A DNA stretch of 64,000 bases, from contig NZ_JAQNDL010000002.1 in the NCBI RefSeq assembly GCF_028368995.1, forward strand, positions 1,568,001-1,632,000. Direction: 5' to 3'. A program made the translations under genes and the position numbers. The DNA comes from Nannocystis bainbridge. Lineage in GTDB: Bacteria; Myxococcota_A; Polyangia; Nannocystales; Nannocystaceae. Of this stretch, positions 4,842 through 64,000 are shown piece after piece; position 1 is the stretch's first letter; each line of letters starts with the position of its first letter. Below the pieces are notes generated by a model. That model made no database searches. It was given only the letters and a program-made list of their open reading frames with translations, and was not told where the DNA came from.

Positions 4842-6583
4842 CGACGCGGTGGCACATGTCCGATCGGTCATGTCAGCGTAAAGGCCGGCGAACGACATGG
4901 CTCAAGGAGCATGTCCGAGGGGTCATGTTCTTCGGGACAGTCCTGCTCGCCGCGATCGCGGGCGAAGCGGCGGCGCAGGAGCCGTTCTATCTGCCGGTCG
5001 GCGACTTGATCCCGGGCTCCGGCGAGGGCCTGGCCGATGCCACGGTGTACGCGCCGGGCATGCGGTTCCCGATCGAGGACGGGCCGGCGTACCCGAACTC
5101 GCAGGTATACCGGTCCGGCGGCTACATGGGCCCGCCCGGCAGCCAGTGCGACCCGGAGAACTACGCCTATCCGTGGCGCGACAACTACTGCGAAAAGCGC
5201 AGCTGGGACATGCCGCTGTGCCCGGCGGGCATCGGTCATCAGGGCCAGGACATCCGCCCGCCGACCTGTGAGAAAGACGTGCACTGGGTGGTGGCCGGGC
5301 GCGCCGGCGACGTGACCAATATCGGCAGTTATTCGGTGTACGTCACCAGCGTCGACGGGCAGCGCCTCGATTATCTGCACGGGGCGGTGCCGACGCTGCA
5401 AGTGGCGCTCGGCGACGCGGTGGTGCCCGGGCAGCGGCTGGTCGCGGTGTCCAACAACATGGGCGACACGCCGACGTCGATCCACCTGCACTTCAACATC
5501 CGCCAGGACATCGGCGGCGTCGGGGTGGCGTTCGTGTCGCCGTACATGTCGCTGGTCGGCGGGTACGAGGAGCTGATGGGCCTCGGCAACTCGCCGCCGG
5601 GTGGCTCGCTCGACAAGGCCGACTGCGCGAGCTTGGTCGGCTGGGCCCAGGACCCCGACGCGCCGGAGCAGTCGATCGCGGCGCTGCTGTCGTTCGGCGG
5701 GCCGATGGGCGCGCCGGGGGCGACGCTGGTCGAGGTGATGGCCGACGTGCCGCGCGACGATCTCTGCGCGCAGCTCGGCTCGTGTGCGCACGGCTTCGAG
5801 GTCGAGGTGCCGCTGTCGCTGCGCGACGGGGCGAGCCACGAGGTGCACGTGTACGCGAAGGACGACGGCCAGGGCGCCCCCGCCGAGGTGGCGCTGTCGC
5901 CGGGCAGCTTCGCCTGCGAACCGCCGCCGCTGCCGACCGGCGTGCGCCGGTGGGTCGTCGATCCGGAGTCGCTGGCGGCGTGGAAGCTGTCGCCGTTCTG
6001 GCAGATGATCGTGGCGCCCGAGGCCGCCGTGGCGGCGCTGCCCGAGGGGGCCGATCTGCCACCGCTGCCGATCCTGGCGCGCAGCCCGGCGGCGCCCGAC
6101 ACGACCTGGCTGATCGACCAGGGCACGCGCCGTCCGGTGACCGATCCGGCGATCGCCGCGGCGTGGCAGCTCGACCTCGAGGCGACCGAGACGTGGGCGC
6201 CGGAGCTGTTGATGGCGCTGCCCGAGGGTCCGCCGCTGCGACCGCTGCCAGTGCTGGTCCAGGGGACAGGTCCGAAGATCTACGTGCTCGACGATCCGCT
6301 GTGCATCCCCGGCGAGGAGGAGCCGAGCTGCGCGACGAACGAGAGCAGCTCGGGCGCGGAGGAGCCGACGAGCGGCTCTGCGACGAGCGAGGATGCATCT
6401 TCGTCTTCGTCGTCCCCCACCCCCGGCCCAGCGTCGGCGGGAGCGCTGCCTCCCGGCTTCGGCAGCGAGGACGGTTGCGGCTGTCGCCACGCGGAGAATC
6501 CCGGCGCGGGCTTGCTGGTGATCGCGAGCCTGGCCTGGCGCCGCCGTCGTCGCGCTGGACAGGAGCGCGTGCGCAGGACATGA
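4838..6583 (+). CDS. M23 family metallopeptidase domain protein with MYXO-CTERM-like anchor
   Basis: M23 motifs HQGQD (HxxxD) and HLH, a Ser/Thr-rich linker, and C-terminal GCGC + hydrophobic + RRRRR. The real start may be near 4926. Confidence 0.8.
   Translation: MTTRWHMSDRSCQRKGRRTTWLKEHVRGVMFFGTVLLAAIAGEAAAQEPFYLPVGDLIPGSGEGLADATVYAPGMRFPIEDGPAYPNSQVYRSGGYMGPPGSQCDPENYAYPWRDNYCEKRSWDMPLCPAGIGHQGQDIRPPTCEKDVHWVVAGRAGDVTNIGSYSVYVTSVDGQRLDYLHGAVPTLQVALGDAVVPGQRLVAVSNNMGDTPTSIHLHFNIRQDIGGVGVAFVSPYMSLVGGYEELMGLGNSPPGGSLDKADCASLVGWAQDPDAPEQSIAALLSFGGPMGAPGATLVEVMADVPRDDLCAQLGSCAHGFEVEVPLSLRDGASHEVHVYAKDDGQGAPAEVALSPGSFACEPPPLPTGVRRWVVDPESLAAWKLSPFWQMIVAPEAAVAALPEGADLPPLPILARSPAAPDTTWLIDQGTRRPVTDPAIAAAWQLDLEATETWAPELLMALPEGPPLRPLPVLVQGTGPKIYVLDDPLCIPGEEEPSCATNESSSGAEEPTSGSATSEDASSSSSSPTPGPASAGALPPGFGSEDGCGCRHAENPGAGLLVIASLAWRRRRRAGQERVRRT
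4852..4941. repeat. 14-bp palindromic-unit array (TGTCC-N4-GGACA family)
   Basis: CATG-type junctions at 4855, 4869 and at 4896, 4910, 4924, 4938. Confidence 0.8.
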
Positions 6584-6954
6584 GCGGACCCTTGCGATCG
6601 TCGATGTCACCGACGCACGCTCGTTGACAGGTCTCGATCGCAGGGTCCAGAGGCCACCCCGCACCGAGAGGCGTCGACAGCGCCGTGCGAGCGAGTCGCT
6701 TCGCTCGCGCTGTCGGACGGCATCGCGCGATCCGTCTCGAGTGCTGCCATGTCGTCGGCGACAGTCGGAGCGTGCTCGATCGGACGTCCCGTCACGGTCG
6801 AGCACGCTGGCTCGAGCGGCGGACGCCGGGCATTCCGCGCCGGCGCGCTCGGGCAAACCGCGGGTGCGGCGCAAGGGCGCGCAGCGGCATGCAGGAGACA
6901 TCGGGCGGATCCGCACGTTGATTGCGGTGGCCGGAGTTGGGACAACGATCGAGC

Positions 6955-7560
6955 ATGCGGTCCCGTCACGCTTCCCACGCCCCGATGCTCATCGGTCTGT
7001 CTCTCGCGCTCGCCGGGGGATTGGCGCTGTCCTACAGCGTGTCGGCGGCGCAGAAGGAATCGGCGAAGAAGGATTCGCCGGGCGCGGCGCCGGGCCAGAC
7101 GCTGAGCGGGACCAAGGCGACGCCGGCGCCGGGTGCTGCCGCGCCGTCGACGACGTTGCCCCCGAAGGTGGTCGCCAACGACCTGCGCGACCTGCTGGTG
7201 ACCTTCAAGGACGCGGGCGGGCTCAAGTTGCGCTCGAGCTTCAACAGCTCGCAGCTCGGGACGAAGTTCGCCTCCGACGTGCTCGAGATCGAGAGCGCGA
7301 GCGGCGTGACGGTCAGCGAGCGCGGCAAGTGGAGCTTCTCGCCGCCGACGTTCAAGGTGTCGATCGCCATGAACGCGGAGGCCCGCGCGGCGCTGGACCT
7401 GTGTCTCCGCCTCATCACCGCGCCCGCCAACGGTCGGGCGCTGACGCTCGAGTTCATGCGCTTGAACTCGCCGGCGGTCGACGCCTACTCGCTGTCGACG
7501 ACGGTCCTCGACGTGATCCGCCCGCTCGAGATGGGCTTCATCAACTGTTCGCTCGAGTGA
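6955..7560 (+). CDS. Secreted hypothetical protein
   Basis: Signal-peptide-like LIGLSLALAGGLALSYSVSAA and good codon bias; alternative start at 6985. Confidence 0.65.
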   Translation: MRSRHASHAPMLIGLSLALAGGLALSYSVSAAQKESAKKDSPGAAPGQTLSGTKATPAPGAAAPSTTLPPKVVANDLRDLLVTFKDAGGLKLRSSFNSSQLGTKFASDVLEIESASGVTVSERGKWSFSPPTFKVSIAMNAEARAALDLCLRLITAPANGRALTLEFMRLNSPAVDAYSLSTTVLDVIRPLEMGFINCSLE

Positions 7561-8131: not shown

Positions 8132-8169
8132 TCCCATGGCCTTCAGGTCATGTCCTTTGGGACATGTCA
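8132..8169. repeat. 14-bp palindromic-unit array
   Basis: CATG at 8135, 8149, 8163; contains the perfect unit TGTCCTTTGGGACA. Confidence 0.8.
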
Positions 8170-15450: not shown

Positions 15451-16917
15451 GTGGACCCTCTCTTCCCCTGCCTCGCGGCTCCCGACGGTCGCATCGTCCT
15501 CACCGTCGGCGACGACTCGTTCTCCGATCGCCAGCTGCTCGCCGCCGCCCGCCGCCACGCTCAGGCCCTCGCGCGCGCCGGAATCGCCCCGGGCGACCGC
15601 GTCGGCGTGTGGACCCTGCCGTACCTCGGCACCGTCGTCGCCCTGGTCGGCGGCGCCCTCGCCGGCGTCGTCACCGTCCCGCTCAACCCCAGGCTCGGCG
15701 AGCGCGAGTGCTCCCACATCGCCGCCGACGCGGCCCCGCGCTGCTGCTTCGCCGCCCGCCCCGCCGAGTGCCCCGAGAGTCCGCTCGGCCCCGCGATCGC
15801 CGTCTCCGAGGACATGTCGGATGCAGCATGTCCCGAGGGACATCAAGACTTTCACCGCGCCGACGAGCGCCCGCTCCTCCTCATTTACACCTCGGGCACC
15901 ACCGGCGCGCCGAAGGGGGCCGTGCTCACCGCCGCGGGCGTGGCCGCCAACATCGACGGCCTCGCCCGGGCCTGGCAGTGGACCGCGCGCGACACCGTCG
16001 TCCACGCCTTACCGCTGTTCCACGTCCACGGCCTCGTGCTCGGCCTGTTCGGCAGCCTGCGGATCGGCGGCCGCCTGCACTGGCAGCCGCGCTTCGAGCC
16101 CGTCGCCCTCGCGGCGGCCGTGCGTGGCGGCGGCGTGCTGTTCGCCGTGCCGACCATGTACGTCCGCCTCGCCGAGCTCGCCGAGCGCGACGCCTCGATC
16201 GCGGCCGACCTCGGCGCCGCGCGGCTCCTGATCTCCGGCTCCGCCGCCCTGTCCGCGCGTGAGCATCGACGTCTCGCCGCGATCACCGGTCGCGGCGTCT
16301 ACGAGCGCTACGGCCTCACCGAGACGCTGATCGTGTGCGCCGTCCCCACCTCGGGCCCGCCGCGCCCGGGCCTCGTCGGTCCGCCGCTGCCCGGCGTCGA
16401 GGTCCGCCTCGTCGACGACGCCCGGCGCCCGCTCGACGTCGCCGACGACGCCACCATCGGCGAGATCGCCGTCCGCGGCCCCAGCGTGTTCGCCGGCTAC
16501 CTCGGCCGGCCCGAGGCCACCGCCGCCGTGCGCGACGCCGACGGGTGGTTTTACACCGGCGACCTCGCCACCCGCACCGACGACGGCGCCTATCGCATCG
16601 TCGGTCGGCGCGCCACCGACCTGATCAAGAGCGGCGGCTTCAAGATCGGCGCCGGCGAGATCGAAGCCTGCCTGCTCGAGCACCCCGACGTCGCCGAGAC
16701 CGCCGTCGTCGGCCTGCCCGACGACGACCTCGGCGAACGGATCGTCGCCTTCGTCGTCGCCCGCGACCCAGCGCTCCCTCCGCCCGGTGAGCAGCTCGTC
16801 GATCACGTCGCGCGCGCGCTCGCCCCGCACAAGCGCCCGCGCGACGTCCGGTTCGTCGAAGCCCTGCCCCGCAACGCCATGGGCAAGGTGATCAAGGCCC
16901 GGCTCACCCGCCCCTGA
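15451..16917 (+). CDS. AMP-binding acyl-CoA synthetase (MatB/malonyl-CoA synthetase-like)
   Basis: YTSGTTGAPKG, LPLFHVHGL, ERYGLTET, TGD, GRRATDLIKSGG and LPRNAMGKV. Confidence 0.9.
   Translation: MDPLFPCLAAPDGRIVLTVGDDSFSDRQLLAAARRHAQALARAGIAPGDRVGVWTLPYLGTVVALVGGALAGVVTVPLNPRLGERECSHIAADAAPRCCFAARPAECPESPLGPAIAVSEDMSDAACPEGHQDFHRADERPLLLIYTSGTTGAPKGAVLTAAGVAANIDGLARAWQWTARDTVVHALPLFHVHGLVLGLFGSLRIGGRLHWQPRFEPVALAAAVRGGGVLFAVPTMYVRLAELAERDASIAADLGAARLLISGSAALSAREHRRLAAITGRGVYERYGLTETLIVCAVPTSGPPRPGLVGPPLPGVEVRLVDDARRPLDVADDATIGEIAVRGPSVFAGYLGRPEATAAVRDADGWFYTGDLATRTDDGAYRIVGRRATDLIKSGGFKIGAGEIEACLLEHPDVAETAVVGLPDDDLGERIVAFVVARDPALPPPGEQLVDHVARALAPHKRPRDVRFVEALPRNAMGKVIKARLTRP
15810..15844. 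repeat. 14-bp palindromic-unit array inside the acyl-CoA synthetase CDS
   Basis: Junctions at 15813, 15827, 15841; perfect unit TGTCCCGAGGGACA; encodes EDMSDAACPEGH. Confidence 0.8.
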
Positions 16918-17480: not shown

Positions 17481-18749
17481 ATGCTTGGCCTGACTTGGTT
17501 GCGGGGCAGCGCGTGGATCGTCGTCGTCGCGGGCGCCGGCGGCTGCCAGATCTTGAACCCTGCCTTCGGCTTGCTCACCGACGGCGACAGCGACGGCGAC
17601 AGCGCGGCCTCGACAGGACCTGTCCTTACGACCAGCAGCGAGCCGACCACCAGCGACACCTCCGCCAGCGCCACCGATCCCGGCACCACCGTCAGCAGCG
17701 AGCCGCCCCTCACCACCAGCGTCGACACCGAAGACCTCACCGACACCGGCGTCGCCAGCGAGACGACCCTCGCCACCGATCCTGTCCCGCCCAGCTGCGG
17801 CGACGGCGTCCTCGATCCCGGCGAGGAGTGCGACGACGGCGACGGCGTCGACGGCGACGAGTGCACCAACAAGTGCACCCTCGCCGAGTGTGGCGACGGC
17901 ATCGTCCACGACGGCCAGGAGGAGTGCGACGCCGGCGGCGTCGATGCCGATCCGCTGTGCAACCCCGCGTGCCAGCTCGCCGAGTGCGGCGACGGCTTCA
18001 TCCAGCCGCCCGAGCAATGCGACGACACCAACGCCGACGAGTTCGACGGCTGCACCGGCGACTGTCAGCTCAGCTGCGGCGACGGCGTGTTCGATCCGGG
18101 GCGTGAGGAGTGCGATGCGAGCGACCCCGGCTTCGCCGAGCTCCTCGGCCTGTGCGACGAGCAGTGCGCCCTCAAGGCCTGCTTTCGCCTCACCAACACC
18201 GACGACAAGGATTTCCTCGACTCCGGTTGGTTCGACGCCTGCGCCACCGCTCCGGGCGAGCGGATCGCCGTCCTGTTGCGCGATCCCACCGGCGTCCAGT
18301 ACCTGCGGTTCGGCCACAAGCCGCCCTCGATCACCCCGTGGACCCCCTCGAAGATGACCTCCACCAAAGCGCCGCCCGAGCAGTGGAAGTTCGGCCAGCA
18401 CGATCGGCCCGTGGTCCTCATCGACCTCCTTTTCGACAAGCCCGGCCCGACCCCCGACGTGCTCTACGCCTTTGGCGACGACAGCCTGCCCAAGGTCAGC
18501 GACGCTGCGACTTGCCCCTCGAGCCTCGGCGACGGCTACGCGGTGGCGATCCTGCCCCAGGGCGGCACCACCCAGGCGCGCGTGCTGCTGATGCCCTTCG
18601 TCGGCACCAGCAAGGAGCGCAACCTCGGCGGCTGGCTCGCCACCGGCCCCGGCGTCGAGCTCTCGTACGACGACAGCCCCATGCCGCTGTGCAAGGTCGA
18701 GGACCCCCCGACCCCGTTCCTCGGCACCGTCGCCGTCGCCGTGTTCTGA
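17481..18749 (+). CDS. Lipoprotein with Myxococcales Cys-rich repeats (DUF4215-like)
   Basis: Signal ending GGC, Thr/Ser-rich linker, four CGDG...EECD repeats. Confidence 0.85.
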
Positions 18750-18750
18750 T

Positions 18751-18816
18751 CGACATGCCCGCGAGGACATGTCCTCGCGGTCATGCCCCTGAGAACATGC
18801 CCGCCGGGACATGCCC
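18751..18816. repeat. 14-bp palindromic-unit array between convergent genes
   Basis: CATG at 18754, 18768, 18782, 18796, 18810. Confidence 0.9.
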
Positions 18817-18827
18817 GTTCGGCCGCC

Positions 18828-20264
18828 TCAGCCCGGGCGGGTGCCGAAGCGCAGCCGGATCGCCTGGGCCCGGTACTCGAAGATGTCGCGCAGGCGCGGG
18901 CGCACGAACAGCGCGTCGGCGATCCGGCCGATCGGTCCCAGCGGCGGCCGGTAGTAGACCGTATCGTCCATCTGCGTCGCCCCCTCCCCGCGCGGCGTGA
19001 AGCGGTGCTCGTGCCACCACGCGGCGAACGGCCCGCGCGTCTGCACGTCGACGAACCGGCGCTCCGGCTCCCACAGCTCGAACTCGGTGGTCCAGCGCCG
19101 GCGCACCGGCCCGACCTGCAGCTCGTAGTCGATGTGACGCCCCGCCTCGACGATCAGCGGTCGCGGCGACTTGATCGTCATCACCGCCGCGCGCGGCGTC
19201 ATGATCCCGAGGTTCTCCGCCCGCGAGAAGAACCCGAACACCGCCGACAGCGGCGCCGCCAGCACCGTCGATTGCTGAAGCACCGTCGTCGGCGCGCGGC
19301 GGGCCAGGTACGGGCTCGTCGGCGCCATCTCGGCCCGCGCGAAGTCGGGCCGGTCACGGCCGCCGAACAGGTCGCTCAGGGCTGACGGCAGCGTCGGGAA
19401 CTGGAACGTGAACCCGAGCGCCAGCGTGCGCGCGGGGATGGCCCGCTGGCTGGCGACCAGCGCGTTCGCGGCCTCGCCCTTGGCGATCCGCAGCGCCAGG
19501 TAGGGCACCGGCAGGCGGGCCTTGCGACCCAGCGACTCGGCCAGCGCCTGCGAGAAGGCCAGATTGGTCACCGGCTGGGGCGCCACCGCCAGCACCGGCC
19601 CGGTGTAGCGGGCGTCGGTCGCCGCGGTCGTCAGCAGCTCGACGAGATCGTGGAGGTGGATCCATGGGAACCACTGCTCGCCCGAGCCCAGCGGCCCGCC
19701 GAGCCCCACGCGGAAGATCGGCAGCAATTGCTCGAGCACCCCACCGCCGTGCCCGAGCACCAGCCCGAGCCGCGGCGTGCACACCCGCACCCCGTGCGCC
19801 TCGGCCTTGTGGGCCGCCGCCTCCCACGCCTGGCACATCGAGCCGAGGAAATCGTCGGCCGGGCGCGACGTCTCGTCGAGCTCCTCGTCGCCGCGATCCC
19901 CGTAGTAGCCGACCGCCGACGCCGACACGAGCACCTGCGGTCGCGGCTCCGACCTGGCGATCGCTCGCACCAGCATCTCGGTCAGCGCGACGCGGCTGTC
20001 CCAAAGTTCACGTTTGCGCGCCGCCGTCCACCGCCCGACCCCGACCGACTCGCCCGCCAGGTGGATCACCGCCTCGCAGCCCGTCAGCGCGCGGACCAGC
20101 GCCGCCTCGTCGCCTGCGGCCACCAGATCGACCTCGGCGCCCAGCAGATCGGCCGCGCGCCGCGGCGACCGCACCCAGGCCCGCACGTGGTGCCCGTCTC
20201 GCAGCAATCGGAGGACCAGCGCCCGTCCGACGAACCCCGTCGCGCCCGTGACCAGAATGTGCAT
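18828..20264 (-). CDS. TIGR01777/YfcH-family NAD-dependent epimerase fused to a C-terminal SRPBCC domain
   Basis: ILVTGATGFVG, SASAVGYYG, GGPLGSGEQWFPWIH; C-terminal FVDVQTRGPFAAWWHEHRF. Confidence 0.9.
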   Translation of the reverse strand: MHILVTGATGFVGRALVLRLLRDGHHVRAWVRSPRRAADLLGAEVDLVAAGDEAALVRALTGCEAVIHLAGESVGVGRWTAARKRELWDSRVALTEMLVRAIARSEPRPQVLVSASAVGYYGDRGDEELDETSRPADDFLGSMCQAWEAAAHKAEAHGVRVCTPRLGLVLGHGGGVLEQLLPIFRVGLGGPLGSGEQWFPWIHLHDLVELLTTAATDARYTGPVLAVAPQPVTNLAFSQALAESLGRKARLPVPYLALRIAKGEAANALVASQRAIPARTLALGFTFQFPTLPSALSDLFGGRDRPDFARAEMAPTSPYLARRAPTTVLQQSTVLAAPLSAVFGFFSRAENLGIMTPRAAVMTIKSPRPLIVEAGRHIDYELQVGPVRRRWTTEFELWEPERRFVDVQTRGPFAAWWHEHRFTPRGEGATQMDDTVYYRPPLGPIGRIADALFVRPRLRDIFEYRAQAIRLRFGTRPG

Positions 20265-25344: not shown

Positions 25345-25350
25345 CCCATA

Positions 25351-25505
25351 GGACATGTGTGAACAAACATGTCCGATCTACCATGTCTCTTGCGCCATGG
25401 CCTTTGGCCTATGTCCTTCAGGACCTGCACATCAGAGCATGTTCTCTGGGACATGGCCCTTGATCTCCATGCAAAAGGACATGTCCGATAAGACATGTCA
25501 CATGC
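25351..25505. repeat. Long 14-bp palindromic-unit array between convergent genes
   Basis: Junctions at 25354, 25368, 25382, 25396, 25410, 25424, 25438, 25452, (25466 degenerate), 25480, 25494. Confidence 0.9.
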
Positions 25506-26795: not shown

Positions 26796-26888
26796 GCCCT
26801 CACCGGATGCACGTCGCGGGCCACGGCCCCCGAGGTCCTCGCGCCGGGGCCGCGACGCCGCGGACTCTCACATGTCCTTCGGGACATC

Positions 26889-37884: not shown

Positions 37885-37909
37885 TCTGAGCCAGACGACG
37901 CCTCGACCG

Positions 37910-49029: not shown

Positions 49030-49103
49030 GAGCATGTCCCGAGGGACAGTACGAAATGTCTATCGAGACATGTCTATCGGAGCATGTCCGAATGGCCATG
49101 CGA
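49030..49103. repeat. 14-bp palindromic-unit array between convergent genes
   Basis: Junctions at 49033, 49047 and at 49055, 49069, 49083, 49097. Confidence 0.85.
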
Positions 49104-51149: not shown

Positions 51150-51584
51150 CAGCGAGGCTGTCTCTCGGGACATGACCCCGAGACCAGCTCCGGTGCCGCG
51201 AGCCAGGCCCCGCGGCGCGCCGTCCTCCCCTGCCTCTTCCGACATGTCCGATGCGCCAGCCCAGGGTCCGGTCGCCCGCGGCGCCCAGATAAACAGTCCC
51301 TTTGGACATGTCTGATCCGCCAGGTCAGGGCCAGGTGCGGGCCCCCGAGCGCCCCGGGGATCTTCGCCCTGGCGCCCGCGGTCGTGGTCGTGCTCGCTCG
51401 CCGCGGTCGCGCGTGCAGCCCCCGCCGTCCGCGGGTCTCGCGCTCGCCCACCCTGCGGCAAGGGCAGGTTCGCGGGCGACGACCCCTCCGCTCCCCGGCG
51501 CGCCGAGGGTGATTTGCCGTCGTGCGTGACGACGCCCGCCCCTGCCGGCGGCAGTCCGCGCCCCGATGGTGCTACAACCTCCGG

Positions 51585-52331: not shown

Positions 52332-52423
52332 CCCTGTCCTTCGGGGCATGCCCCTTCGAACCTGTCCCTGGCGACCTGTCCGAACGAACCTGTCCTTGAT
52401 CACCTGCCCTTGAGGACCTGTCC
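52330..52423. repeat. 14-bp unit array (CCTG-junction variant) filling the cysH-metallophosphoesterase gap
   Basis: Junctions at 52333, 52347, 52361, 52375, 52389, 52403, 52417. Confidence 0.9.
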
Positions 52424-52425
52424 TT

Positions 52426-53322
52426 ATGCCCCTGCGCTTCGTCCACTGCTCCGACATCCACCTGCTCGAGCTGGCGGGCAACACCCCGCAGCGGTTCTTC
52501 AACAAGCGGCTGACGGGCGGCGTCAATTTGCTGCTCAACCGCAGCCGCAAGTACAGCGGCAGCATGTTCCAGGGGATCGTCGCCGCGGCCCAGGCGCACG
52601 GGGCCGAGCGGCTGGTGATCACCGGCGACCTGACCAACCTCGCGCTCCAGTCCGAGTTCGAGCACGTCCAGCGGGCCCTCGAGGCCGTGCCGATGCCGGT
52701 CACCGTCATCCCCGGCAACCATGACGCCTACACCCGCGGGTCGGTCCGCTCGCGCCGGTTCGAGCACTACATGTCCGCGTTCATGGAGGGCGAGCGCGAG
52801 CCCGACACCGACTACCCGTTCGTCCAGCGCCTCGGCGACGTGGCCCTGATCGGCCTGTCGACCGCGATCCCCTCGCTGCCGCTCTACGCCGTCGGCCGCG
52901 TCGGCGACGAGCAGCTGGCCCGGCTCGGCCGGTTCCTGGCCAAGCTGGGCGCCGAGGGCCTGGCGCGGGTGGTCCTCATCCATCACCCGGTGGTCCGCGG
53001 CGTGGCCAAGCCGCGCCACGATCTGCTCGACCTCGACGCCTTCGGGCGGGTGATCGCCGAGCACGGGGCGGAGCTGATCCTCCACGGCCACGAGCACCGG
53101 CGCATCGAGGGCGCGCTGCCCGGCCCCGGCGGCGTGGCGGTCCCGGTCCACGGCGTCGGCTCCGGCACCTATCTGTCACAAAAGCCAGGTCGTCACGGCG
53201 CCTACGTCCTTTACACCGTTCGACCGGGTCGCGTCACCCGCACGTACCACCGCTGGGACGGCCGCGATTTCGTCGCCGACGAGCCGGACGGCCCGGTGCT
53301 CGCCGGAACCGGCTCGCACTGA
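52426..53322 (+). CDS. Metallophosphoesterase (calcineurin-like)
   Basis: SDIH, TGDLTN, PGNHD, IHHP, LHGHEH. Confidence 0.9.
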   Translation: MPLRFVHCSDIHLLELAGNTPQRFFNKRLTGGVNLLLNRSRKYSGSMFQGIVAAAQAHGAERLVITGDLTNLALQSEFEHVQRALEAVPMPVTVIPGNHDAYTRGSVRSRRFEHYMSAFMEGEREPDTDYPFVQRLGDVALIGLSTAIPSLPLYAVGRVGDEQLARLGRFLAKLGAEGLARVVLIHHPVVRGVAKPRHDLLDLDAFGRVIAEHGAELILHGHEHRRIEGALPGPGGVAVPVHGVGSGTYLSQKPGRHGAYVLYTVRPGRVTRTYHRWDGRDFVADEPDGPVLAGTGSH

Positions 53323-55162: not shown

Positions 55163-56869
<1,707 letters not shown>

Positions 56870-56872: not shown

Positions 56873-57059
56873 GTAGGTGTCCGTTCGGACATGCCCTTGG
56901 CGGCATGTCCGAAGCGCCCTGTCGCTTCGGACATGCGCCTTCGAGCATGTCCCTCGATACACCTCACCGGCGCGCCTCGGCATGTCCTTCGACATATGCG
57001 CTGCCGCCCCGCACGCTGTCTTCGCCGCAGTGATCGCGCATGTCCTTCGAGACATGCGC
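56873..57059. repeat. Compound 14-bp palindromic-unit array between convergent genes
   Basis: Junctions at 56876, 56890, 56904, 56918, 56932, 56946, 56960; then 56981, 56995; then 57039, 57053. Confidence 0.9.
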
Positions 57060-57915: not shown

Positions 57916-60138
57916 ATGATAGCCTTGGCTTGTTGTTCGCGCCGTAAGGCGTCCCTCACACTGCTTTTGACGGTGATTTCACGGGGGGCGGCGGCCGCAC
58001 CTGGCAGCCCGACCCGAACCGGGCTGTGCCGGATGATGGTGGCGGCGTCGCGCAGAAGCTCGAACTCGTCGACATCGACGGCGACGGCTTCGTCGATCTC
58101 GCGGTCGCCAACAGCCGCGGCGACGCGCTCGGCAGCGACCTCGACGCGCAACCGAACGCCCTCGTGCACAACGAAGGCGGGCTCGGCTTCTCGCCGATGC
58201 CCGGCGCGTTTGACGAGCCCGACAACGCCTACGTGATCAAGGCCGGCGACCTGAACGGCGACGGCAAGCCCGACCTCGTGGTCGGCGTCGCCTACGGCGG
58301 CCCCAGCTATGTGCTCTTCAATTTCGAGGGCGCGTTCATTCGCCGTCCACCCCGTGCCCGCGCTGGCCAACAAGCAGATCAACAGCGCCTTCACCGTCCT
58401 CGATCTCGAGGCCGACGGCGACCTCGATCTCGTCACCTTGCAGGACGGCTTCGGCGGCGGTCGCAACACCGTGCTCGTCGGCGACGGCAGCGGCGGCTTC
58501 GTCGACAACCCGGGCGCCTACTGGGCCTTCGTCGACAATCCGCCGCGCCTCGACTTCGACGCCGACAGCCTCGACTTCGACAACGACGGCACCCCTGATG
58601 TCGTCGTGCTCGGCCCGCAGCAGAACCCCGGCGAGGTCCACGCTCGCCTGCTGCGCAACGACGGCAGCTCGCTGGTCCCGACCGCCCCCGACGGCGCCGC
58701 GTTCACGCCGGGCCCCGAGCTCGCCGCCAGCTTCGGCGTCGCCGTCGCCGACTTCGATCACGACCTCCGGCCCGACCTCGCGGTCGCCGTGCGCGACCCC
58801 GAGGCCACCAACGCCGTCCTGTTCGCCGGCCCCGACGTGCCCGAAGACATCACGCCGCCGCGGGTCGGCATGCTCGCTCCGCTGCCTGACGTCGTCGAGC
58901 CCGGCAGCGAGGTGCGGGTGCGCGTCCGCGTCGACGACGGGCGCACCCCGGCGCGCTGGCACGATTTCTTTCACGACCTCGCGCTGCCGACCTACAACCT
59001 GGTCCACAGCCTCGGCATCGCCCACCTGCGGCGCCTGCCGTACGTCGAGTTCGCCTTCGATCTCGAAGATCCCGCGCTGCTCGACGCGATGCCCGACGCC
59101 GGCCCCTTCAAGCACATCGTCCCCGGCGAGTGGTACGGCGAGTCGTTGTGGCGGATCCGCTTCAGCGTGGATCCGCAGTGGAGCGTCGACCACGAGTTCT
59201 TCGTCTGGCGCGTGTGTGCCATCGACGCCGCCGGCTCTCGCGGCTGCAGCGCGGCCGCGCAGGCGACCCTCGCCGACGCGCCGGTGAACGAGTGCGGCAA
59301 CGGCGTGCTCGATCGCGGCGAGGCGTGCGACGACGCCCTCGATCCGCTGTGCGACGGTTGCAAGCTGACCTGCGGCGACGGCCTGTGCATCGCCCCCGAG
59401 GACCCCGGCAACTGCCCCGAAGATTGCCCCGGCTGCGACGACGACGGCACCTGCGAGCCCGGCGAGGACGCGACCTGCTGCGACTGCATGAACTGCGGCG
59501 TGTGTGGCGACGGCGTCTGTCAGACGAACCTCGAGACCGCGATCGACTGCGCCGAGGACTGCAGCGCCTGCGGCGACGGCATCTGCGACACCCTGGAGGA
59601 CGGGACCACCTGCGCCCTCGACTGCTTCGTGTGCGGCGACGGCATCTGCCAGGGCGCCGAGTCGCTCGACGACTGCCCGTGGGACTGCTCGATCTGCGGC
59701 GACTGCGTGTGCCACGGCAACGAGGACCCCGACAACTGCTGGTTCGACTGCGGCGAAGGTTGCGGCGAGCCGACCCACGGCGCCTGGTGCGGCGACAACT
59801 TCTGCGAACCGTCGGAGATGGGCTCGTGCATCGAGGACTGCGGCGCTTGCGGCGACGGGGTCTGCAACCCCGGCGAGCGCGATGCTTGCCCCGAGGACTG
59901 CGGCGTGTGCGGCGACTGCGTCTGCGACCCCGCCGAGACGCCTGGCCTCTGCCCGGAGGACTGCACCGGCATGTGCGGCGGCGACGGCTCGGCCACCACC
60001 GGCCCCGAACCCGACGCGGTCGACGACGGCCTGGCCTGCAGCTGCCGCGACACGCCCTCCGGCGCCGGCGGCCTGGCGTTCGGCCTCACGCTCTTGCTCG
60101 CCCGCCGGCGCCGAGGTGATCGTTCGGACATGTCGTGA
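57916..60138 (+). pseudogene. FG-GAP + Cys-rich repeat + MYXO-CTERM-like protein, split by apparent frameshifts
   Basis: Signal-like segment in the 57916 frame, DIDGDG/DLNGDG repeats in the 58026 frame, continuation in the 58309 frame through CGDG repeats to LACSC...LLLARRRR. Confidence 0.65.
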
Positions 60139-60177
60139 GGGACATGTCCGTTTCGCCATGAACGATCGTGCCTGGTC
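60126..60177. repeat. 14-bp palindromic-unit array at a gene end
   Basis: Junctions at 60129, 60143, 60157, 60171. Confidence 0.85.
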
Positions 60178-60226: not shown

Positions 60227-61111
60227 ATGACCAGGAAGCTCGCGTTGCTGGGAGTGCTGGTGTCCGGTTGCGGCGGCGCCGCGGCGACGACCGACGATGC
60301 GACGAGTGCGTCCTCGACCGCGACGGGCTCGACCTCCTCGACCTCGACCGCCAACACCCCGACGTCCGCGAGCACGACGGAGGACTCGACCGCGCCGACC
60401 GCCGGCGATTCGATGAACTTCGCGGTGGGGCTCGATCTCCCCCAGCCTGGTGTCGCCTGCGATCCGTGGCAGGACGACTGCCCCGCCGGTCTCAAGTGCA
60501 AGCCGTACGCGGAGGGCCTCGGCCCGTGGACCGACGCCAGCTGCGTCCCGATCGCCGACCCGTCGACGCCGACTGGCGAGGCCTGCCTGGAGGCCGAGTG
60601 GTCGGTGGTCGACACCTGCGAGCGCGGCGCGGTGTGCCACGGGTACCTCGGCGACCAGGAGGAGGGCCGACGCTGCCAGGAGGTGTGTGCCGGCTCGCCC
60701 GCCGATCCGAGCTGTTCTGACGCATGCTCGTTCTGCACGATGAACGGCACGGTCGCCGGCGTGTGCATGCTGCGCTGCGATCCGCGGAGCCCGAGCTGTC
60801 CCGCAGGTCAGCGGTGCCTCATCGAGCCGACGCTGCCGCGCTTCGCCTGCGGGCCCGGCGGGGAGCTGAGCGCTGCCGGCGAGCCCTGCGTGTCCCCGGA
60901 TTACTGCAAAGAGGGCACCGCCTGCGTCGACGCGGCGCTGGTACCGGGCTGCGTCGAGGCGCAGTGCTGCGCGCCGGTCTGCGACCTCGCGGGCGCCGAC
61001 GCGTGCCCGACCGCGCTGCCCGGCACGACCTGCGCACCCTGGCCGGTGAGCGGCCCGGAGTTCGAGGGCGAGTGCCTGCCGCCGGACCTGGGCCTGTGCT
61101 CGGCGATGTAG
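60227..61111 (+). CDS. Cys-rich myxobacterial lipoprotein
   Basis: LVSGC lipobox, Thr/Ser linker, CDPWQDDCPAGLKCKPYA...CCAPVCD. Confidence 0.82.
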   Translation: MTRKLALLGVLVSGCGGAAATTDDATSASSTATGSTSSTSTANTPTSASTTEDSTAPTAGDSMNFAVGLDLPQPGVACDPWQDDCPAGLKCKPYAEGLGPWTDASCVPIADPSTPTGEACLEAEWSVVDTCERGAVCHGYLGDQEEGRRCQEVCAGSPADPSCSDACSFCTMNGTVAGVCMLRCDPRSPSCPAGQRCLIEPTLPRFACGPGGELSAAGEPCVSPDYCKEGTACVDAALVPGCVEAQCCAPVCDLAGADACPTALPGTTCAPWPVSGPEFEGECLPPDLGLCSAM

Positions 61112-61149: not shown

Positions 61150-61229
61150 TCTCATGTCGGTAAGGACATGTCCCACGGAGCATGTCCTCGAGCACAGGCT
61201 CCAAAGAACATGTCCTTCCGTACAGCGCC
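61150..61229. repeat. 14-bp palindromic-unit array between convergent genes
   Basis: Junctions at 61153, 61167, 61181, 61195, 61209, 61223. Confidence 0.9.
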
Positions 61230-61263
61230 CTCGGTCGAGCTCACGCACCGCCTACGCGCCGCC

Positions 61264-62433
61264 TCAGAAGCGCACCACCAGCCCGCCCGCCCGCGCCTGC
61301 ACGCGGGTGCGGCCGCGGACCGCCCCGGCGATCAGCGCCGCCACGCCGGCCGTCAATAACGCGCCGGTCAGAATCCCGCCGACCAGCGCCATCCGGTTGG
61401 CGCGCAGGCCCTCCGCCACCAGCTCGGTCTTGGCCCGCTCACGGGCCGCGTCGCTGCCGCACGGATCGAGCGGGTCGTCGCCCTGGCACGGCCGGGCCGT
61501 CACGTCCTTCAGGTCCGCGTCCGCGGCGCGACCGGTCAGCCCGCCGGCCAGCGCCACCACCCCGGCGACCACCGCCGCCCCGCCGAGCCCGGCCGCCGCC
61601 AGGCCGGCCTTGCGGTCGAAGCCGCGGCGCGCCGCAGCGAAACGCGGCGGTGGGCGCGGGCCCTCCGGCGCGGCTGAACTTTGGTACATGGCCGAAAGTT
61701 CAGCCCGTCGCCCCTCGACGCCGACGCGGTTCTCGTCGTCGGTCGGGTCGAGCCCCCCGAGGTAAGCGTCGAGCGCCGCGATCCCGGCGTGCAGCCGCGC
61801 CGGATCGCCCGACTCGCGGAACGCCGCCTCCTCCGCGTCCGCGATCGCCAGGGCCGCGGTCGCGCGCCGCGGCGCGTGGCCGAACCCGCCCGGCAGCGCG
61901 AGGAACGCCCGCCGCCACAGCGCGATCGCCCCGTCGCGATCACCAGCGGCCAGCCGGGCCTGGGCCGCCGCCGACAGCGCCGCCGCCTCGTCGACCCCGT
62001 CCTGCCCCGCTCGCGGCGCGGCGCTGGCGACCCCGGCGGCCTCGTCGACCCCGGCCCGCGGGGAGGTCCCGGCGTCGCTCGCTCCCTGCCCCGTCGCGGG
62101 CGCCGCGGCGCCGCTGGATGTCTCTGGAGACATGTCCGAAGGGACCTGCGCCGCCCCCTGCACCGGCGCCGCCGCCACCGCCAGCCCGAGCCACGCCGCC
62201 AGCGCGCCCCGGCGGACGGACGGCGCTGCGCCGAAACGTGACCTGTCCCTCGGGACACATGAACGATCCCCCGCAGCCGCCGACGCGTGGGGTGCTTGGT
62301 CTTCCGACCTGTCTCTCCGACCAGGCGCCGGGACCCCACCCCGCCCGACCGGCCCGGTCGCGCCGCTCCGGACGGCGGCCGCGTCGGCGCGCGCGGGCGC
62401 CCGGACGACGGCAGCGGGGATCGCGGCAGGCAC
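61264..62433 (-). CDS. TPR-like membrane/secreted protein
   Basis: AGDRDGAIALWRRAF helical repeat, two C-terminal Gly-rich hydrophobic segments, ends GGLVVRF; start uncertain. Confidence 0.65.
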   Translation of the reverse strand: MPAAIPAAVVRAPARADAAAVRSGATGPVGRGGVPAPGRRDRSEDQAPHASAAAGDRSCVPRDRSRFGAAPSVRRGALAAWLGLAVAAAPVQGAAQVPSDMSPETSSGAAAPATGQGASDAGTSPRAGVDEAAGVASAAPRAGQDGVDEAAALSAAAQARLAAGDRDGAIALWRRAFLALPGGFGHAPRRATAALAIADAEEAAFRESGDPARLHAGIAALDAYLGGLDPTDDENRVGVEGRRAELSAMYQSSAAPEGPRPPPRFAAARRGFDRKAGLAAAGLGGAAVVAGVVALAGGLTGRAADADLKDVTARPCQGDDPLDPCGSDAARERAKTELVAEGLRANRMALVGGILTGALLTAGVAALIAGAVRGRTRVQARAGGLVVRF

Positions 62434-62532
62434 GTCGTTCGGATGGTAGACCAGCCCTCCTGCGGGACAAGGGCCGGCGGGCCGCGGGGCGCGTTGAAGC
62501 CCGGGGCAGTTTCCGGGATCCTGGTCGTCGCG

Positions 62533-64000
62533 GTGGCAGGCGCAAAGTCCACGGTCCGCACGGGCCGGCAGTTCTCGAGCCTCGAGCAGGCCGACACGGC
62601 CACGCCGCCCGCCTCGTCGGTGTCCGCGCCGGACGACGCGCGTCACCTCAGCCGGCTGGCCAGCGAGGCCCGGCGCGGCGACGCGCTCGCCCCCGAGCGG
62701 CTGGCGATGGAGGCGATCAAGGCCCGCCTGTTCCCCGGCGAGGTCGCGCCCGCCAAGATCGGCCGCTTTACCGTCCTGCGGCAGATCGGCGCCGGCGGCA
62801 TGAGCGTCGTCTACGCCGCCTACGACGAGCGCCTCGATCGCAGGATCGCCGTCAAGCTGCTGCGCTCCGGCGAGGCGGCCGACAACCAGGCGCGGCTGCT
62901 GCGCGAGGCGCAGGCGATGGCCCGCCTGGCCCACCCCAACGTCGTCGCCGTGCACGAGGTCGGCGCCTGGGAGAACCAGGTCTACGTCGCCATGGAGTTC
63001 GTGCGCGGGCCCAACCTGCGCGACTGGTTGCAAGCTGTCCCGCGGGACATCCGCGAGATCCGCGAGGTGTTCGTGGCCGCCGGCCGGGGCCTCGCCGCCG
63101 CCCACCACGCCGGCCTGGTCCACCGCGACTTCAAGCCGGCCAACGTGCTCGTCGGCGACGACGGCCGCGTGCGCGTCGGCGACTTCGGCCTCGTGCGTCA
63201 CGCCGGCGACGAGCCGCTCGAGCCGCCCGCGCCCGCACCTGTCCCTTCGACCAGCATCCTCAGCGCCGGCGCGCGGGTCGAGCTCTCGACCACCCTCACC
63301 CAGACCGGCGCGATCCTCGGCACGCCGGCGTACATGTCCCCCGAGCAGCACCTGGGCCGGCCCGTCGACGCCCGCAGCGACCAGTTCTCGTTCTGCGTCG
63401 CCCTCTACGAGGCCCTCTACGGCGCCCCGCCGTTCGCCGGCCGCGACCTGTTCGAGCTGGCCCGCCGCGTGCTCGCCGGCGCGGTCTCACCTGTCCCCGA
63501 GGACAGCAAGGTCCCCGCCTGGCTGCGGCGCGCGCTCGTCCGCGGCCTCGCCGTCGATCCCGCCGCGCGCTGGCCCAGCATCGACGACCTGCTCGACGAG
63601 CTCGAGCGCGATCCGGAGCGGGCCTGGCGGACCCGCCGCAGCGCCGCGCTGGTCGGCCTCGCGGTGGTCGTCGTGGTCGTCGGCCTGCTCGTCGTCGCGC
63701 GCGAGCGGGCCGACGCGGCCACGCAGGCCCAGCGGGCCGAGGCCGCCGCCGATCGCCAGCGGCGGACCGCCGAGGACGAGCGGGCCGCCGCCGAGCAGGA
63801 GCGCGACCGGGCCTTCGTCGACGCCAAGGCCCAGCTCGCCGAGGCCCAGCGGGCCCAGGCCGCCCTCAAGGACGCGCTCGCGGCCGCCGAGGCCCAGCGC
63901 CTCAACGCCGAGGCCCACGCCGCCCTGGCCGAGCACGCGCTGGGCGAGGCCGAACGGCGCCGGCGCGAGGCCGAGGGCCAGCGCAAGGAGGCCGAGCGCC
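62533..64000 (+). CDS. Hanks-type Ser/Thr protein kinase (partial, runs off the window end)
   Basis: Translated by hand: IGAGGMSVVY, IAVK, HRDFKPAN, DFGL, GTPAYMSPEQ, then TM and coiled coil. Start uncertain (62494, 62533 or 62707). Confidence 0.9.
   Translation, partial: MAGAKSTVRTGRQFSSLEQADTATPPASSVSAPDDARHLSRLASEARRGDALAPERLAMEAIKARLFPGEVAPAKIGRFTVLRQIGAGGMSVVYAAYDERLDRRIAVKLLRSGEAADNQARLLREAQAMARLAHPNVVAVHEVGAWENQVYVAMEFVRGPNLRDWLQAVPRDIREIREVFVAAGRGLAAAHHAGLVHRDFKPANVLVGDDGRVRVGDFGLVRHAGDEPLEPPAPAPVPSTSILSAGARVELSTTLTQTGAILGTPAYMSPEQHLGRPVDARSDQFSFCVALYEALYGAPPFAGRDLFELARRVLAGAVSPVPEDSKVPAWLRRALVRGLAVDPAARWPSIDDLLDELERDPERAWRTRRSAALVGLAVVVVVVGLLVVARERADAATQAQRAEAAADRQRRTAEDERAAAEQERDRAFVDAKAQLAEAQRAQAALKDALAAAEAQRLNAEAHAALAEHALGEAERRRREAEGQRKEAER

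What the first reader, a model, noticed from the sequence alone, without database searches (positions are those of the whole stretch)
4852..63510. Pervasive 14-bp palindrome (TGTCC-N4-GGACA) forming strictly phased arrays across the host chromosome
Seen: the palindrome occurs as single units (e.g. 29293, 35753, 36480, 63492) and as head-to-tail arrays. Their GACA|TGTC junctions (CATG, CCTG or CAGG) recur at exactly 14-bp intervals even though individual units are quite degenerate. Examples: 25354-25494 (11 phased positions), 28386-28484 (8), 52333-52417 (7), 56876-56960 (7), 32072-32142 (6), 61153-61223 (6), 18754-18810 (5), 37822-37878 (5). I count more than 35 clusters by eye, roughly one every 1-2 kb. 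Inference: conserved phase with diverged sequence does not look like recent slippage. It suggests either selection for cooperative binding of a dimeric protein (a chromosome-organising site system, comparable in role to matS, SlmA or Noc sites) or a REP-like element that propagates in unit steps. I do not recognise it as a described element, and no obvious cognate protein or HUH/RAYT transposase is in this window.
Basis: partly seen in the sequence, partly recalled or inferred. Interest (0 to 1): 0.92.

Follow-up and report, generated by a model that had tools for sequence, protein, structure and literature searches.

The report
Genus-wide 14-bp phased palindrome arrays
One genus of large-genome, GC-rich soil bacteria carries thousands of copies of a short CATG-centred palindrome, often in strict 14-base steps just after genes, which looks like the docking site of an unknown protein that marks gene ends.

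Summary
TGTCC-N4-GGACA occurs 14 times in the window (0.06 expected) and 1,987 times in the 11-Mb genome, and only the 4-bp spacer is enriched. CATG pairs 14 bp apart outnumber those at lags 13 and 16 about 50-fold.

The real unit is a CATG-centred 10-bp palindrome (GGRCATGYCC) repeated every 14 bp. There are about 5,300 loci, from single sites to 11-unit arrays.

It is confined to one genus: 114-2,090 copies in 11 of 11 genomes, traces in two sister genera, and at most 1 match to a stricter pattern in 300 other genomes of the phylum.

Arrays sit at gene 3' ends. They occupy 64-66% of 60-500-bp convergent spacers but 1-6% of short divergent ones. They are inherited at orthologous loci (36 of 43), while unit number changes by whole-unit slippage.

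About 40% of sites lie in variable coding loops, about 34-fold above synonymous shuffles, and are conserved at third codon positions.

Position-specific constraint without compensatory pairing, strict spacing and the absence of RAYT point to an unidentified sequence-specific protein acting at transcription-unit ends. They do not fit matS/SlmA/Noc-like sites or a RAYT-driven REP. An RNA-hairpin terminator role remains a live rival.

I found no published description. This scan had noted other phased palindromic repeats in other clades, but not this one.

The parts
4857..4870 (.). single unit, intergenic (tandem +/+)
   Evidence: 1 mismatch
4912..4939 (.). 2 phased units at a gene start/intergenic edge
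8137..8164 (.). 2 phased units, intergenic; 8151 exact
15801..15842 (.). 3 phased units inside AMP-binding enzyme gene; 15829 exact
   Evidence: degenerate in G001/G005/G003
18742..18825 (.). 6-unit array filling a convergent spacer (18749..18828)
   Evidence: array also present in G001, G005, G003
20812..20839 (.). 2 units (CCTG type) inside fatty-acid hydroxylase gene
   Evidence: half-sites conserved and spacer varies in G001, G005
21904..21917 (.). single unit in aspartokinase-homoserine dehydrogenase gene
21946..21973 (.). 2 units in the same gene, variable loop (KHVPEDMS); 21946 exact
23287..23300 (.). exact single unit in the same gene, variable loop (SHVPPDIS)
25342..25505 (.). longest array of the window (11 steps, one phase slip), convergent spacer; first unit overlaps the stop codon
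   Evidence: arrays of about 10 and 4 units in G001 and G003
26873..26886 (.). exact single unit, intergenic (-/-)
27303..27316 (.). single unit in a gene
28386..28487 (.). degenerate 8-step array, intergenic (-/-), 5 of 8 junctions intact
29293..29306 (.). exact single unit in a gene
30687..30700 (.). single unit in histidine kinase gene
32074..32143 (.). 5-6-unit array filling a convergent spacer; 32116 exact
   Evidence: RNA fold z -6.1
35753..35766 (.). single unit (1 mismatch) in a gene, identical in three relatives
36466..36493 (.). 2 units in radical-SAM gene; 36480 exact
36684..36711 (.). 2 units in the same gene
37824..37893 (.). 5-unit array, convergent spacer
38900..38927 (.). 2 units in MFS transporter gene; 38914 exact
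39773..39786 (.). single unit in a gene
41372..41455 (.). 6-unit array inside the RlmL-like methyltransferase gene; includes a 42-bp (3-unit, 14-aa) in-frame duplication specific to this genome
42480..42493 (.). single unit, intergenic (-/-)
42920..42947 (.). 2 units in a gene
44255..44282 (.). 2 units in a gene
44936..44977 (.). 3 units (42 bp) in a repeat-rich secreted-type protein gene
45619..45646 (.). 2 units in the same gene
46807..46834 (.). 2 units in the same gene
49035..49098 (.). exact unit plus 3-unit array, convergent spacer
51159..51186 (.). 2 units just after a stop codon (tandem +/+)
51295..51322 (.). 2 units, same spacer
52335..52432 (.). 7-unit directional array (all CCTG junctions) filling a tandem spacer
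   Evidence: kept as CCTG type in G001, G005, G003
55234..55261 (.). 2 units near the 5' end of the Lnt-like gene
56878..56961 (.). 6-unit array starting 9 bp after a stop codon, convergent spacer; 56878 exact
   Evidence: RNA fold z -6.4
57041..57054 (.). single unit, same convergent spacer
60117..60158 (.). 3 units across a gene end
60797..60810 (.). single unit in a weakly supported ORF
61155..61224 (.). 5-unit array, convergent spacer
62119..62146 (.). 2 units in a weakly supported ORF
62244..62257 (.). exact single unit in a spacer called divergent
63036..63049 (.). exact single unit in Ser/Thr kinase gene
63492..63505 (.). exact single unit in the same kinase gene

Best explanation
The motif is a genus-restricted, vertically inherited family of recognition sites. 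The unit is a CATG-centred 10-bp palindrome (consensus GGRCATGYCC), and neighbouring units lie exactly 14 bp apart.

I think it is read as double-stranded DNA by a still unidentified, abundant, sequence-specific protein. A dimer would sit on each palindrome and bind side by side along arrays (3 dimers per 42 bp, about 4 helical turns).

The arrays mark the 3' ends of transcription units and act there as two-way boundary elements: a roadblock or termination aid, insulation of convergent transcription, or a supercoil barrier. This is a role like that proposed for REP/BIME.

Single and double sites scattered in variable loops of coding genes are weaker copies kept by the same selection. Arrays lengthen and shorten by slippage of whole units, and reading frame filters this inside genes.

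Shown here: enrichment, phase, taxonomic restriction, placement, inheritance, slippage, and position-specific constraint without base-pair covariation.

For: Sequence-specific constraint:
- In GGACATGTCC, variants at the C or G of CATG number 5-22, against 956 for the consensus.
- The neighbouring A tolerates only C (192) and the T only G (153).
- The double change CCGG is nearly absent (9), although the genome is 71.5% G+C.
- Outer positions are graded.

No hairpin-type covariation:
- Mirror positions outside the core pair as often as chance predicts: Watson-Crick 0.536 vs 0.452 expected at -1/+14, and no excess further out.
- Double changes in the core are not preferentially complementary.

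Spacing is rigid:
- Spacer 4 gives 1,987 copies; spacers 3 and 5 give 16 and 5.
- CATG lag 14 gives 3,736 pairs; lags 13 and 16 give 72 and 79.

Purifying selection in genes:
- 102 coding sites were aligned to G001.
- Third-codon-position identity is 0.952 in the core (n=372), 0.786 in flanks (n=612) and 0.683 in the spacer (n=120). The genome-wide third-position value is 0.85.
- The tolerant core positions 2 and 11 are also the least conserved.
- Of 45 exact sites in G000, G001 has 29 exact, 13 with one mismatch, 2 with two and 1 with three. None is missing through an indel.
- Observed 679 copies against 17-22 in synonymous shuffles.

Placement:
- At least one site (1 mismatch or fewer) in 64-66% of convergent spacers of 60-500 bp, against 1-6% of divergent spacers of 60-250 bp.
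- 4.6 hits per kb in convergent spacers, 0.61 in divergent.
- In tandem spacers the median distance is 80 bp from the upstream stop codon and 212 bp from the next start.

Inheritance:
- 36 of 43 intergenic arrays are kept at the orthologous spacer in G001, against 3 of 135 array-less spacers.
- Only 12 of 43 keep the same unit count.
- A directional, non-self-complementary array (52335-52432) is kept in four species.

Slippage: identical spacers are enriched at lags 1-4 in intergenic arrays, and only at lags 3 and 6 in coding arrays. RlmL carries a 42-bp duplication.

Restriction to one genus.
Against: - No cognate protein was found. RAYT is absent. A D12 methyltransferase is present family-wide and is not co-distributed. 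The 31 small genes beside the 45 divergent spacers that carry a site are ordinary: Rrf2, ArsR, TetR, an ECF sigma factor and enzymes.
- Arrays fold into very stable RNA hairpins (z -1.5 to -6.4).
- Spacers two units apart are reverse complements more often than chance (126 vs 37).
- There is a weak sense-strand bias of asymmetric junctions (568 vs 426). All three points fit an RNA-level role.
- The conservation test conditions on the site being intact in G000. That alone roughly halves the expected divergence, so the excess conservation is about 2-3-fold, not 4-fold.
- In one search the CATG columns are conditioned on in both genomes, so their 0.90-0.95 identity is not independent evidence.
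- Gene calls are my own and crude.
- No expression or binding data exist.
Confidence: 0.45

Rival explanations
1. RNA-level element. The units are transcribed at the ends of mRNAs and fold into single or nested hairpins. These act as U-tract-less, two-way terminators or 3'-end stabilisers. The sequence is conserved only because the family descends from one unit and is homogenised by slippage.
For: - Terminator-like placement.
- Many arrays start at or within a few bases of the stop codon.
- Strong folds, z down to -6.4.
- Spacers at lag 2 are reverse complements 126 times against 37 expected, which extends the hairpins.
- Canonical hairpin-plus-T-run terminators are not enriched in 20 kb of the window (5 found, 4.0 expected, and one of them is the motif itself).
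- Sense-strand bias of CCTG over CAGG.
Against: - No compensatory covariation in the stem or its extension.
- G-U-compatible variants are not clearly preferred on the sense strand (335 vs 293).
- Loop length is fixed at 4, far more strictly than hairpins need.
- There is no strand asymmetry of loop sequences and no T-run.
- About 40% of sites are inside genes and are conserved there.
- Directional arrays with little self-complementarity (z -1.5) are conserved in four species.
- More than 95% of neighbouring spacers are unrelated, so homogenisation is weak.
Confidence: 0.25
2. Selfish or neutral repeat (REP/MITE-like). It spread in the ancestor of the genus by an unknown mobilising activity, and now persists and expands by slippage wherever it is tolerated. 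It has no function of its own.
For: - Restricted to one genus, with density falling with distance: 180 per Mb in G000 down to 25 per Mb in G004, and 10-19 per Mb in two sister genera.
- The distribution mirrors tolerance: 3' spacers, then coding loops, then promoters.
- Coding copies sit in fast-evolving, indel-prone loops.
- Unit number is unstable.
Against: - No presence/absence polymorphism by insertion among 45 exact sites compared with a species about 10% diverged.
- No target-site duplication or fixed ends; the flanks simply continue the palindrome.
- No RAYT in 11 of 11 genomes of the genus.
- Position-specific conservation at synonymous sites.
- Very unequal tolerance of the two T positions (T>C 44 vs 381), which is not neutral decay.
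Confidence: 0.15
3. A HIP1- or uptake-sequence-like motif. It would be kept abundant by a molecular drive: repair or methylation centred on CATG, or biased uptake of own-genus DNA during transformation.
For: - Hyper-abundant short palindrome in both coding and non-coding DNA, conserved between species, as reported for HIP1 (abstract of PMC5861425).
- Even density around the chromosome.
- Genus-specific.
Against: - Tandem arrays with a fixed 14-bp phase and a strong bias towards gene ends are not features of HIP1 or of uptake sequences as I recall them.
- The only methyltransferase family tested (D12) is not co-distributed.
- No methylome or uptake data are available.
Confidence: 0.08
4. A macrodomain or cell-cycle site system like matS/MatP, SBS/SlmA or NBS/Noc.
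For: A palindromic site for a presumably dimeric protein, spread over the chromosome.
Against: - Thousands of sites rather than tens.
- 0.2-0.9 hits per kb in every 200-kb bin of all five contigs, including both sides of the GC-skew switch near C3 1.4-1.6 Mb.
- Clustered spacing, CV 1.47.
- The bias is at the scale of single genes, not of chromosome domains.
Confidence: 0.02

Closest known systems
REP/BIME elements of Enterobacteria and Pseudomonas (properties recalled from general knowledge, not from a call)
   Same: - Short imperfect palindromes in hundreds to thousands of copies, specific to a clade.
- Clustered head to tail.
- Concentrated after genes and between convergent genes, and rare in promoter regions.
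- Stable at orthologous spacers while copy number varies.
   Different: - The unit is only 14 bp, with a rigid phase.
- There is no GTAG-type head.
- No RAYT/Y1 transposase in any of 11 genomes of the genus.
- About 40% of sites are inside genes and conserved there.
- 64-66% of convergent spacers are occupied, which is more than I recall for REPs.
HIP1 (GCGATCGC) of cyanobacteria (abstract of PMC5861425 read; PMC4390886 seen in a search listing only)
   Same: A hyper-abundant short palindrome, 15-300-fold over-represented, conserved within and between ORFs, with selection inferred, function unknown and a nucleoid role proposed. Here it is about 40-2,000-fold above matched palindromes and is conserved at synonymous sites.
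   Different: - HIP1 is an 8-mer scattered singly; here there are phased tandem arrays and a strong bias towards gene ends.
- HIP1 contains sites of orphan methyltransferases; no such link was found here (one family only).
DNA uptake sequences (DUS of Neisseria, USS of Pasteurellaceae) (recalled)
   Same: Genus-level 'dialect', about one per 1-2 kb, found in coding DNA and as inverted pairs that double as terminators.
   Different: Uptake sequences are not themselves palindromes and do not form phased arrays. Uptake bias cannot be tested here.
Rickettsia palindromic elements (recalled)
   Same: Palindromic repeats that also lie in frame inside protein-coding genes, adding loop peptides, as in RlmL here.
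   Different: RPEs are 100-150 bp mobile insertions. Here the units are 14 bp, and coding copies are shared by sister species without insertion polymorphism.
Operator arrays of ribbon-helix-helix proteins (MetJ metboxes, omega heptads, ParR iterons) (recalled; a 'works like', not a membership)
   Same: Abutting short palindromic or repeated units at a fixed period, each bound by a dimer, with cooperativity along the array.
   Different: Those are a few operators or centromeres per replicon. Here there are about 5,300 loci, placed at gene ends, and no protein is known.
Intergenic heptamer tandem repeats of Xanthomonas and Nostoc (PMC4692102, search listing and start of the abstract only), and other phased palindromic repeats noted earlier in this scan
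   Same: Short-period tandem units building palindromic blocks between genes, specific to a clade and unexplained.
   Different: Different unit, period (7 vs 14 bp) and sequence. Those are G-rich and quadruplex-prone. The coding-region copies and the CATG core are particular to this family.

Membership tests
REP/BIME with RAYT | Short imperfect palindrome that can form a stem-loop, in many copies | tested here: met
   1,987 exact and 6,245 copies with 1 mismatch or fewer; stable folds
REP/BIME with RAYT | Placed after genes, enriched between convergent genes | tested here: met
   4.6 vs 0.61 hits per kb in convergent vs divergent spacers; 64-66% vs 1-6% occupancy
REP/BIME with RAYT | Extragenic | tested here: not met
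   2,404 of 6,245 hits lie inside called genes; 679 exact copies in confident CDS vs 17-22 in synonymous shuffles
REP/BIME with RAYT | Cognate Y1 (RAYT) transposase gene in the genome | tested here: not met
   PF01797: 0 of 11 genomes of the genus and none in G011 or G013, while 17 of 41 genomes searched had a match (16 over the cut-off) and 6 of 14 control genomes did too
REP/BIME with RAYT | Conserved GTAG/CTAC-type tetranucleotide at the foot of the hairpin (recalled feature) | tested here: not met
   The flank profile is R-C-M / K-G-Y, i.e. the neighbouring half unit
HIP1-type iterated palindrome | Short palindrome 15-300-fold over-represented | tested here: met
   1,987 vs 1-53 for matched palindromes; motif words top the 10-mer list
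HIP1-type iterated palindrome | Sites conserved within and between ORFs | tested here: met
HIP1-type iterated palindrome | Contains the target of orphan DNA methyltransferases | tested here: inconclusive
   Only PF02086 was searched. It is present in 34 of 41 relatives and is not co-distributed. Specificity and methylome are unknown
HIP1-type iterated palindrome | Scattered single sites, no tandem arrays | tested here: not met
   2,214 of 5,310 loci have 2 or more phased units
Intrinsic (factor-independent) terminator | Hairpin followed by a U-tract | tested here: not met
   No T-run downstream in transcript orientation; the consensus scan is not enriched
Intrinsic (factor-independent) terminator | Stem kept by compensatory change rather than by sequence | tested here: not met
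Intrinsic (factor-independent) terminator | Downstream of stop codons, absent from promoter-only spacers | tested here: met
matS/SlmA/Noc-type chromosome sites | Tens of sites confined to, or excluded from, the terminus domain | tested here: not met
   Even density of 0.2-0.9 per kb, also across the skew switch
matS/SlmA/Noc-type chromosome sites | Cognate MatP, SlmA or Noc gene | not tested
   No search for these families was run
DNA uptake sequence | Preferential uptake of DNA that carries the motif | not testable with these tools
   Needs transformation assays

The most novel reading that the evidence does not exclude
The genus has a dedicated, sequence-specific DNA-binding protein that polymerises on CATG arrays with a 14-bp phase. 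This would define nearly every transcription-unit end: a protein-based, two-way terminator and insulator system. It would replace hairpin-plus-U terminators in a 71.5% G+C genome, and its weaker single sites inside genes would shape transcription or nucleoid structure.
Probability: 0.25. Interest if true: 0.85.

Novelty: new variant of a known kind. Interest (0 to 1): 0.62.

Why it matters
How transcription units end in very GC-rich bacteria that lack classical terminators is poorly understood, and what REP-like repeats are for is still debated.

Here a single, simple and strongly constrained motif occupies roughly two thirds of 60-500-bp convergent spacers genome-wide. In the anchored sample, 23 of 28 convergent spacers carry a phased array. 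The motif is almost absent from promoter-only spacers, has no RAYT partner, and is under selection even inside genes.

That makes the question directly testable. One pull-down with a 150-bp array, plus 3'-end mapping in a cultivable member of the genus, would show whether a new gene-end protein exists.

The arrays are also practical markers and parts: terminator candidates for engineering these natural-product producers, fast-evolving loci for strain typing, and a clean example of repeat slippage filtered by reading frame (42-bp steps).

Tried and rejected
- RAYT/Y1 transposase as the partner: not found in the genus.
- D12 adenine methyltransferase as a co-distributed partner: present in 34 of 41 relatives, so no link.
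- Autoregulation lead: Pfam on 31 small genes beside the 45 divergent spacers (40-300 bp) that carry a site gave only ordinary regulators and enzymes.
- Origin-to-terminus gradient or macrodomain pattern: none.
- Regular spacing: none; CV is 1.47, i.e. clustered.
- T-run after the palindrome and strand asymmetry of loop sequences: none or slight.
- G-U versus C-A variants on the sense strand: 335 vs 293, not clear.
- Rfam: only a tRNA in the window, and nothing on the arrays.
- Plasmid collection BLAST of the 25340-25510 array: no match.
- Literature: searches, and passages of PMC8538405, PMC6749651, PMC3696898 and PMC3372372, gave no description of this motif. Supplements were not opened.
- Earlier notes of this scan: none on this genome and none on this motif.
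- Technical: one search timed out and was redone vectorised. One search picked wrong-frame ORFs and was replaced by tblastn. In one search, 82 one window locus is listed twice.
- Insertion origin of coding copies: not consistent. The loop is longer in RlmL but not in the homoserine dehydrogenase gene.

Full report
**What is there**

The window is G000:C3:1568001-1632000 of an 11.05-Mb, five-contig genome with 71-72% G+C. TGTCCNNNNGGACA occurs 14 times in the window, against 0.06 expected. Tandem Repeats Finder independently reports period-14 arrays at six of these places.

Genome-wide figures:
- 1,987 exact copies, 4,258 with one mismatch and 7,530 with two. Twelve palindromes built from the same letters have 1-53 exact and 110-1,574 one-mismatch copies.
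- Only the 4-bp spacer is enriched; spacers of 0-3 and 5-11 bp give 0-16 copies.
- Motif words head the list of over-represented 10-mers.
- CATG pairs 14 bp apart number 3,736, against 72 and 79 at 13 and 16 bp. There are further peaks at 28, 42, 56 and 70 bp.

**The unit**

The flanks of exact copies continue the palindrome (R-C-M on the left, K-G-Y on the right), and they do so equally in coding and intergenic copies. Read in the other register, the repeat is a 10-bp palindrome, GGACATGTCC (956 exact copies), followed by 4 variable bases.

Information is highest at the centre:
- The C and G of CATG have 5-22 single variants, against 956 for the consensus.
- The central A changes almost only to C (192) and the T only to G (153).
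- CCGG is nearly absent (9).
- Outer positions are progressively looser.

Of the 956 exact 10-mers, 676 have a junction-like tetramer at +14 or -14 and 280 have none. Chaining phased units gives 5,310 loci covering 145.5 kb: 3,096 singles, 1,004 doubles, and arrays up to 11 units. There is an unexplained excess of 5- and 6-unit arrays.

**Who has it**

All 11 genomes of the genus carry 114-2,090 exact 14-mers. Two other genera of the family carry 87 and 161. The remaining 28 relatives carry 0-8, no more than the reversed-pattern control.

Phased CATG triples number 1,670 in G000. They number 62 and 27 in two distant genus members, 4 in G013, and 0 in G011 and G024.

A stricter 15-letter pattern has 311 matches in G000. 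It has at most 1 match in each of 300 other genomes (209 genera) of the phylum.

**Where it sits**

These figures use my own codon-bias ORF caller. Of the 6,245 hits with 1 mismatch or fewer, 3,692 are intergenic, 149 are on gene edges and 2,404 are inside genes.

| Spacer type | Hits per kb | Spacers with a site |
|---|---|---|
| Convergent | 4.6 | 64-66% (60-500 bp) |
| Tandem | 1.6-1.9 | rises with length |
| Divergent | 0.61 | 1-6% (60-250 bp) |

Further points on placement:
- In tandem spacers, exact sites lie nearer the upstream stop codon (median 80 bp) than the next start (median 212 bp). No T-run follows them.
- In a 584-kb stretch compared with a sister species, 23 of 28 anchored convergent spacers have an array of 3 or more phased junctions, against 1 of 40 divergent ones.
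- Many window arrays begin at the stop codon and fill the spacer.
- Classical hairpin-plus-T terminators are not enriched.
- Density is 0.2-0.9 per kb in every 200-kb bin and does not change across the GC-skew switch beside the window.
- Spacing between loci is clustered, not regular.

**Inside genes**

The 720 exact copies in called genes are spread evenly along gene length. They prefer the frames that give common codons: 405, 253 and 62. They are about 34-fold above synonymous-codon shuffles, 679 against 17-22.

In the RlmL-like gene, the array encodes a loop just before the NPPYG motif. Five close relatives have one block, and G000 has an extra 42-bp (three-unit, 14-residue) tandem copy. 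Two distant members of the genus have a perfect copy in the same loop.

In the aspartokinase-homoserine dehydrogenase gene, three sites lie in loops that vary in length and sequence in distant relatives. The same sites are kept in four close species.

**Evolution**

About 352 kb aligns with G001. Third-codon-position identity is 0.952 in the core (n=372), 0.786 in the flanks (n=612) and 0.683 in the spacer (n=120), against 0.85 genome-wide. The two tolerant core positions are also the least conserved. Conditioning on an intact site in G000 can explain about half of this difference, but not all of it.

Of 45 exact sites in G000, G001 has 29 exact, 13 with one mismatch, 2 with two and 1 with three. 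None is absent through an indel.

Intergenic arrays are retained at 36 of 43 orthologous spacers, while 3 of 135 array-less spacers have one in G001. Only 12 of 43 have the same unit count. Their spacers are only 48% identical even when units are paired to maximise spacer identity. The CATG columns in that comparison are conditioned on and prove nothing. One array made only of CCTG junctions, and hence directional, is kept as such in four species.

Identical spacers are enriched at lags 1-4 in intergenic arrays (1.9- to 3.2-fold). In coding arrays they are enriched only at lags 3 and 6 (5.0- and 4.8-fold; 0.6-1.1 at the other lags). This shows whole-unit slippage filtered by reading frame.

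**Protein or hairpin**

Against a structure-only element:
- Mirror positions do not co-vary.
- G-U-compatible variants are not clearly favoured on the sense strand (335 vs 293).
- Loop length is fixed.
- Loop sequences show no strand bias.
- The A-or-C and T-or-G tolerance keeps the major-groove amino and keto groups. This last point is my inference from base chemistry.

For an RNA role:
- The placement.
- Strong folds (z -1.5 to -6.4).
- Reverse-complementary spacers two units apart (126 vs 37).
- A polarity of asymmetric junctions: CCTG on the sense side, 568 vs 426; CCTG left of CAGG in 78 of 101 mixed arrays.

**Partner search**

- No RAYT in the genus.
- A D12 methyltransferase is present family-wide and is not co-distributed.
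- Genes beside the rare promoter-region sites are ordinary.
- No Rfam family matches the arrays, and there is no plasmid match.
- No RNA holder was listed.

**Comparison and verdict**

The element behaves like REP/BIME in placement and dynamics, and like HIP1 in being conserved inside genes (abstract of PMC5861425). It fails defining features of both: there is no RAYT, it is not extragenic, and it forms arrays rather than scattered singles. It does not resemble matS, SlmA or Noc sites in number or distribution.

Seven literature searches and passages of four papers gave no description. Earlier notes of this scan describe other phased palindromic repeats at convergent gene ends in other clades. 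These are leads that I did not test.

I read this as an undescribed, genus-specific variant of the repeat-at-gene-ends theme. It is most likely the site of an unidentified sequence-specific protein (0.45). The RNA-hairpin terminator reading is the main rival (0.25).

Noticed in passing
window 3981-4054 (-): A tRNA gene, the only Rfam match in the window.
   Followed up: no
G000 contig C3, about 1.4-1.6 Mb (the window starts at 1,568,001): GC skew switches from about +0.09 to -0.08, so a replication terminus or origin lies beside the window. Motif density does not change there.
   Followed up: partly
window 40164-42398 (-), array at 41372-41455: The RlmL-like 23S rRNA methyltransferase gene carries an in-frame 42-bp tandem duplication. 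It is specific to this genome and made of three motif units, just before the NPPYG motif.
   Followed up: yes
window 8310-8425, 17823-18004, 59557-59751: Coding tandem repeats unrelated to the motif (39 bp x3, 96 bp x1.9, 63 bp x3.1), the latter two in Cys-rich proteins; the ORF 17499-18749 that holds the 96-bp repeat matches DUF4215.
   Followed up: no
genome-wide, arrays of 3 or more units: Arrays have an internal polarity. Asymmetric junctions are CCTG in the left half and CAGG in the right half (78 vs 23 mixed arrays). 5- and 6-unit arrays are commoner than 4-unit ones: 289 and 181 against 190.
   Followed up: partly
G000:C1:3591550-3592293 (-) and relatives: A D12-class DNA adenine methyltransferase homologue is found as a single match in most genomes of the family and in most other relatives searched (34 of 41). 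It is possibly an orphan enzyme; its target is unknown.
   Followed up: no
window 44633-47905 (+): A 1,090-residue protein with many repeats of the type DLDGDG; Pfam was not run on it. It holds four separate motif loci.
   Followed up: no
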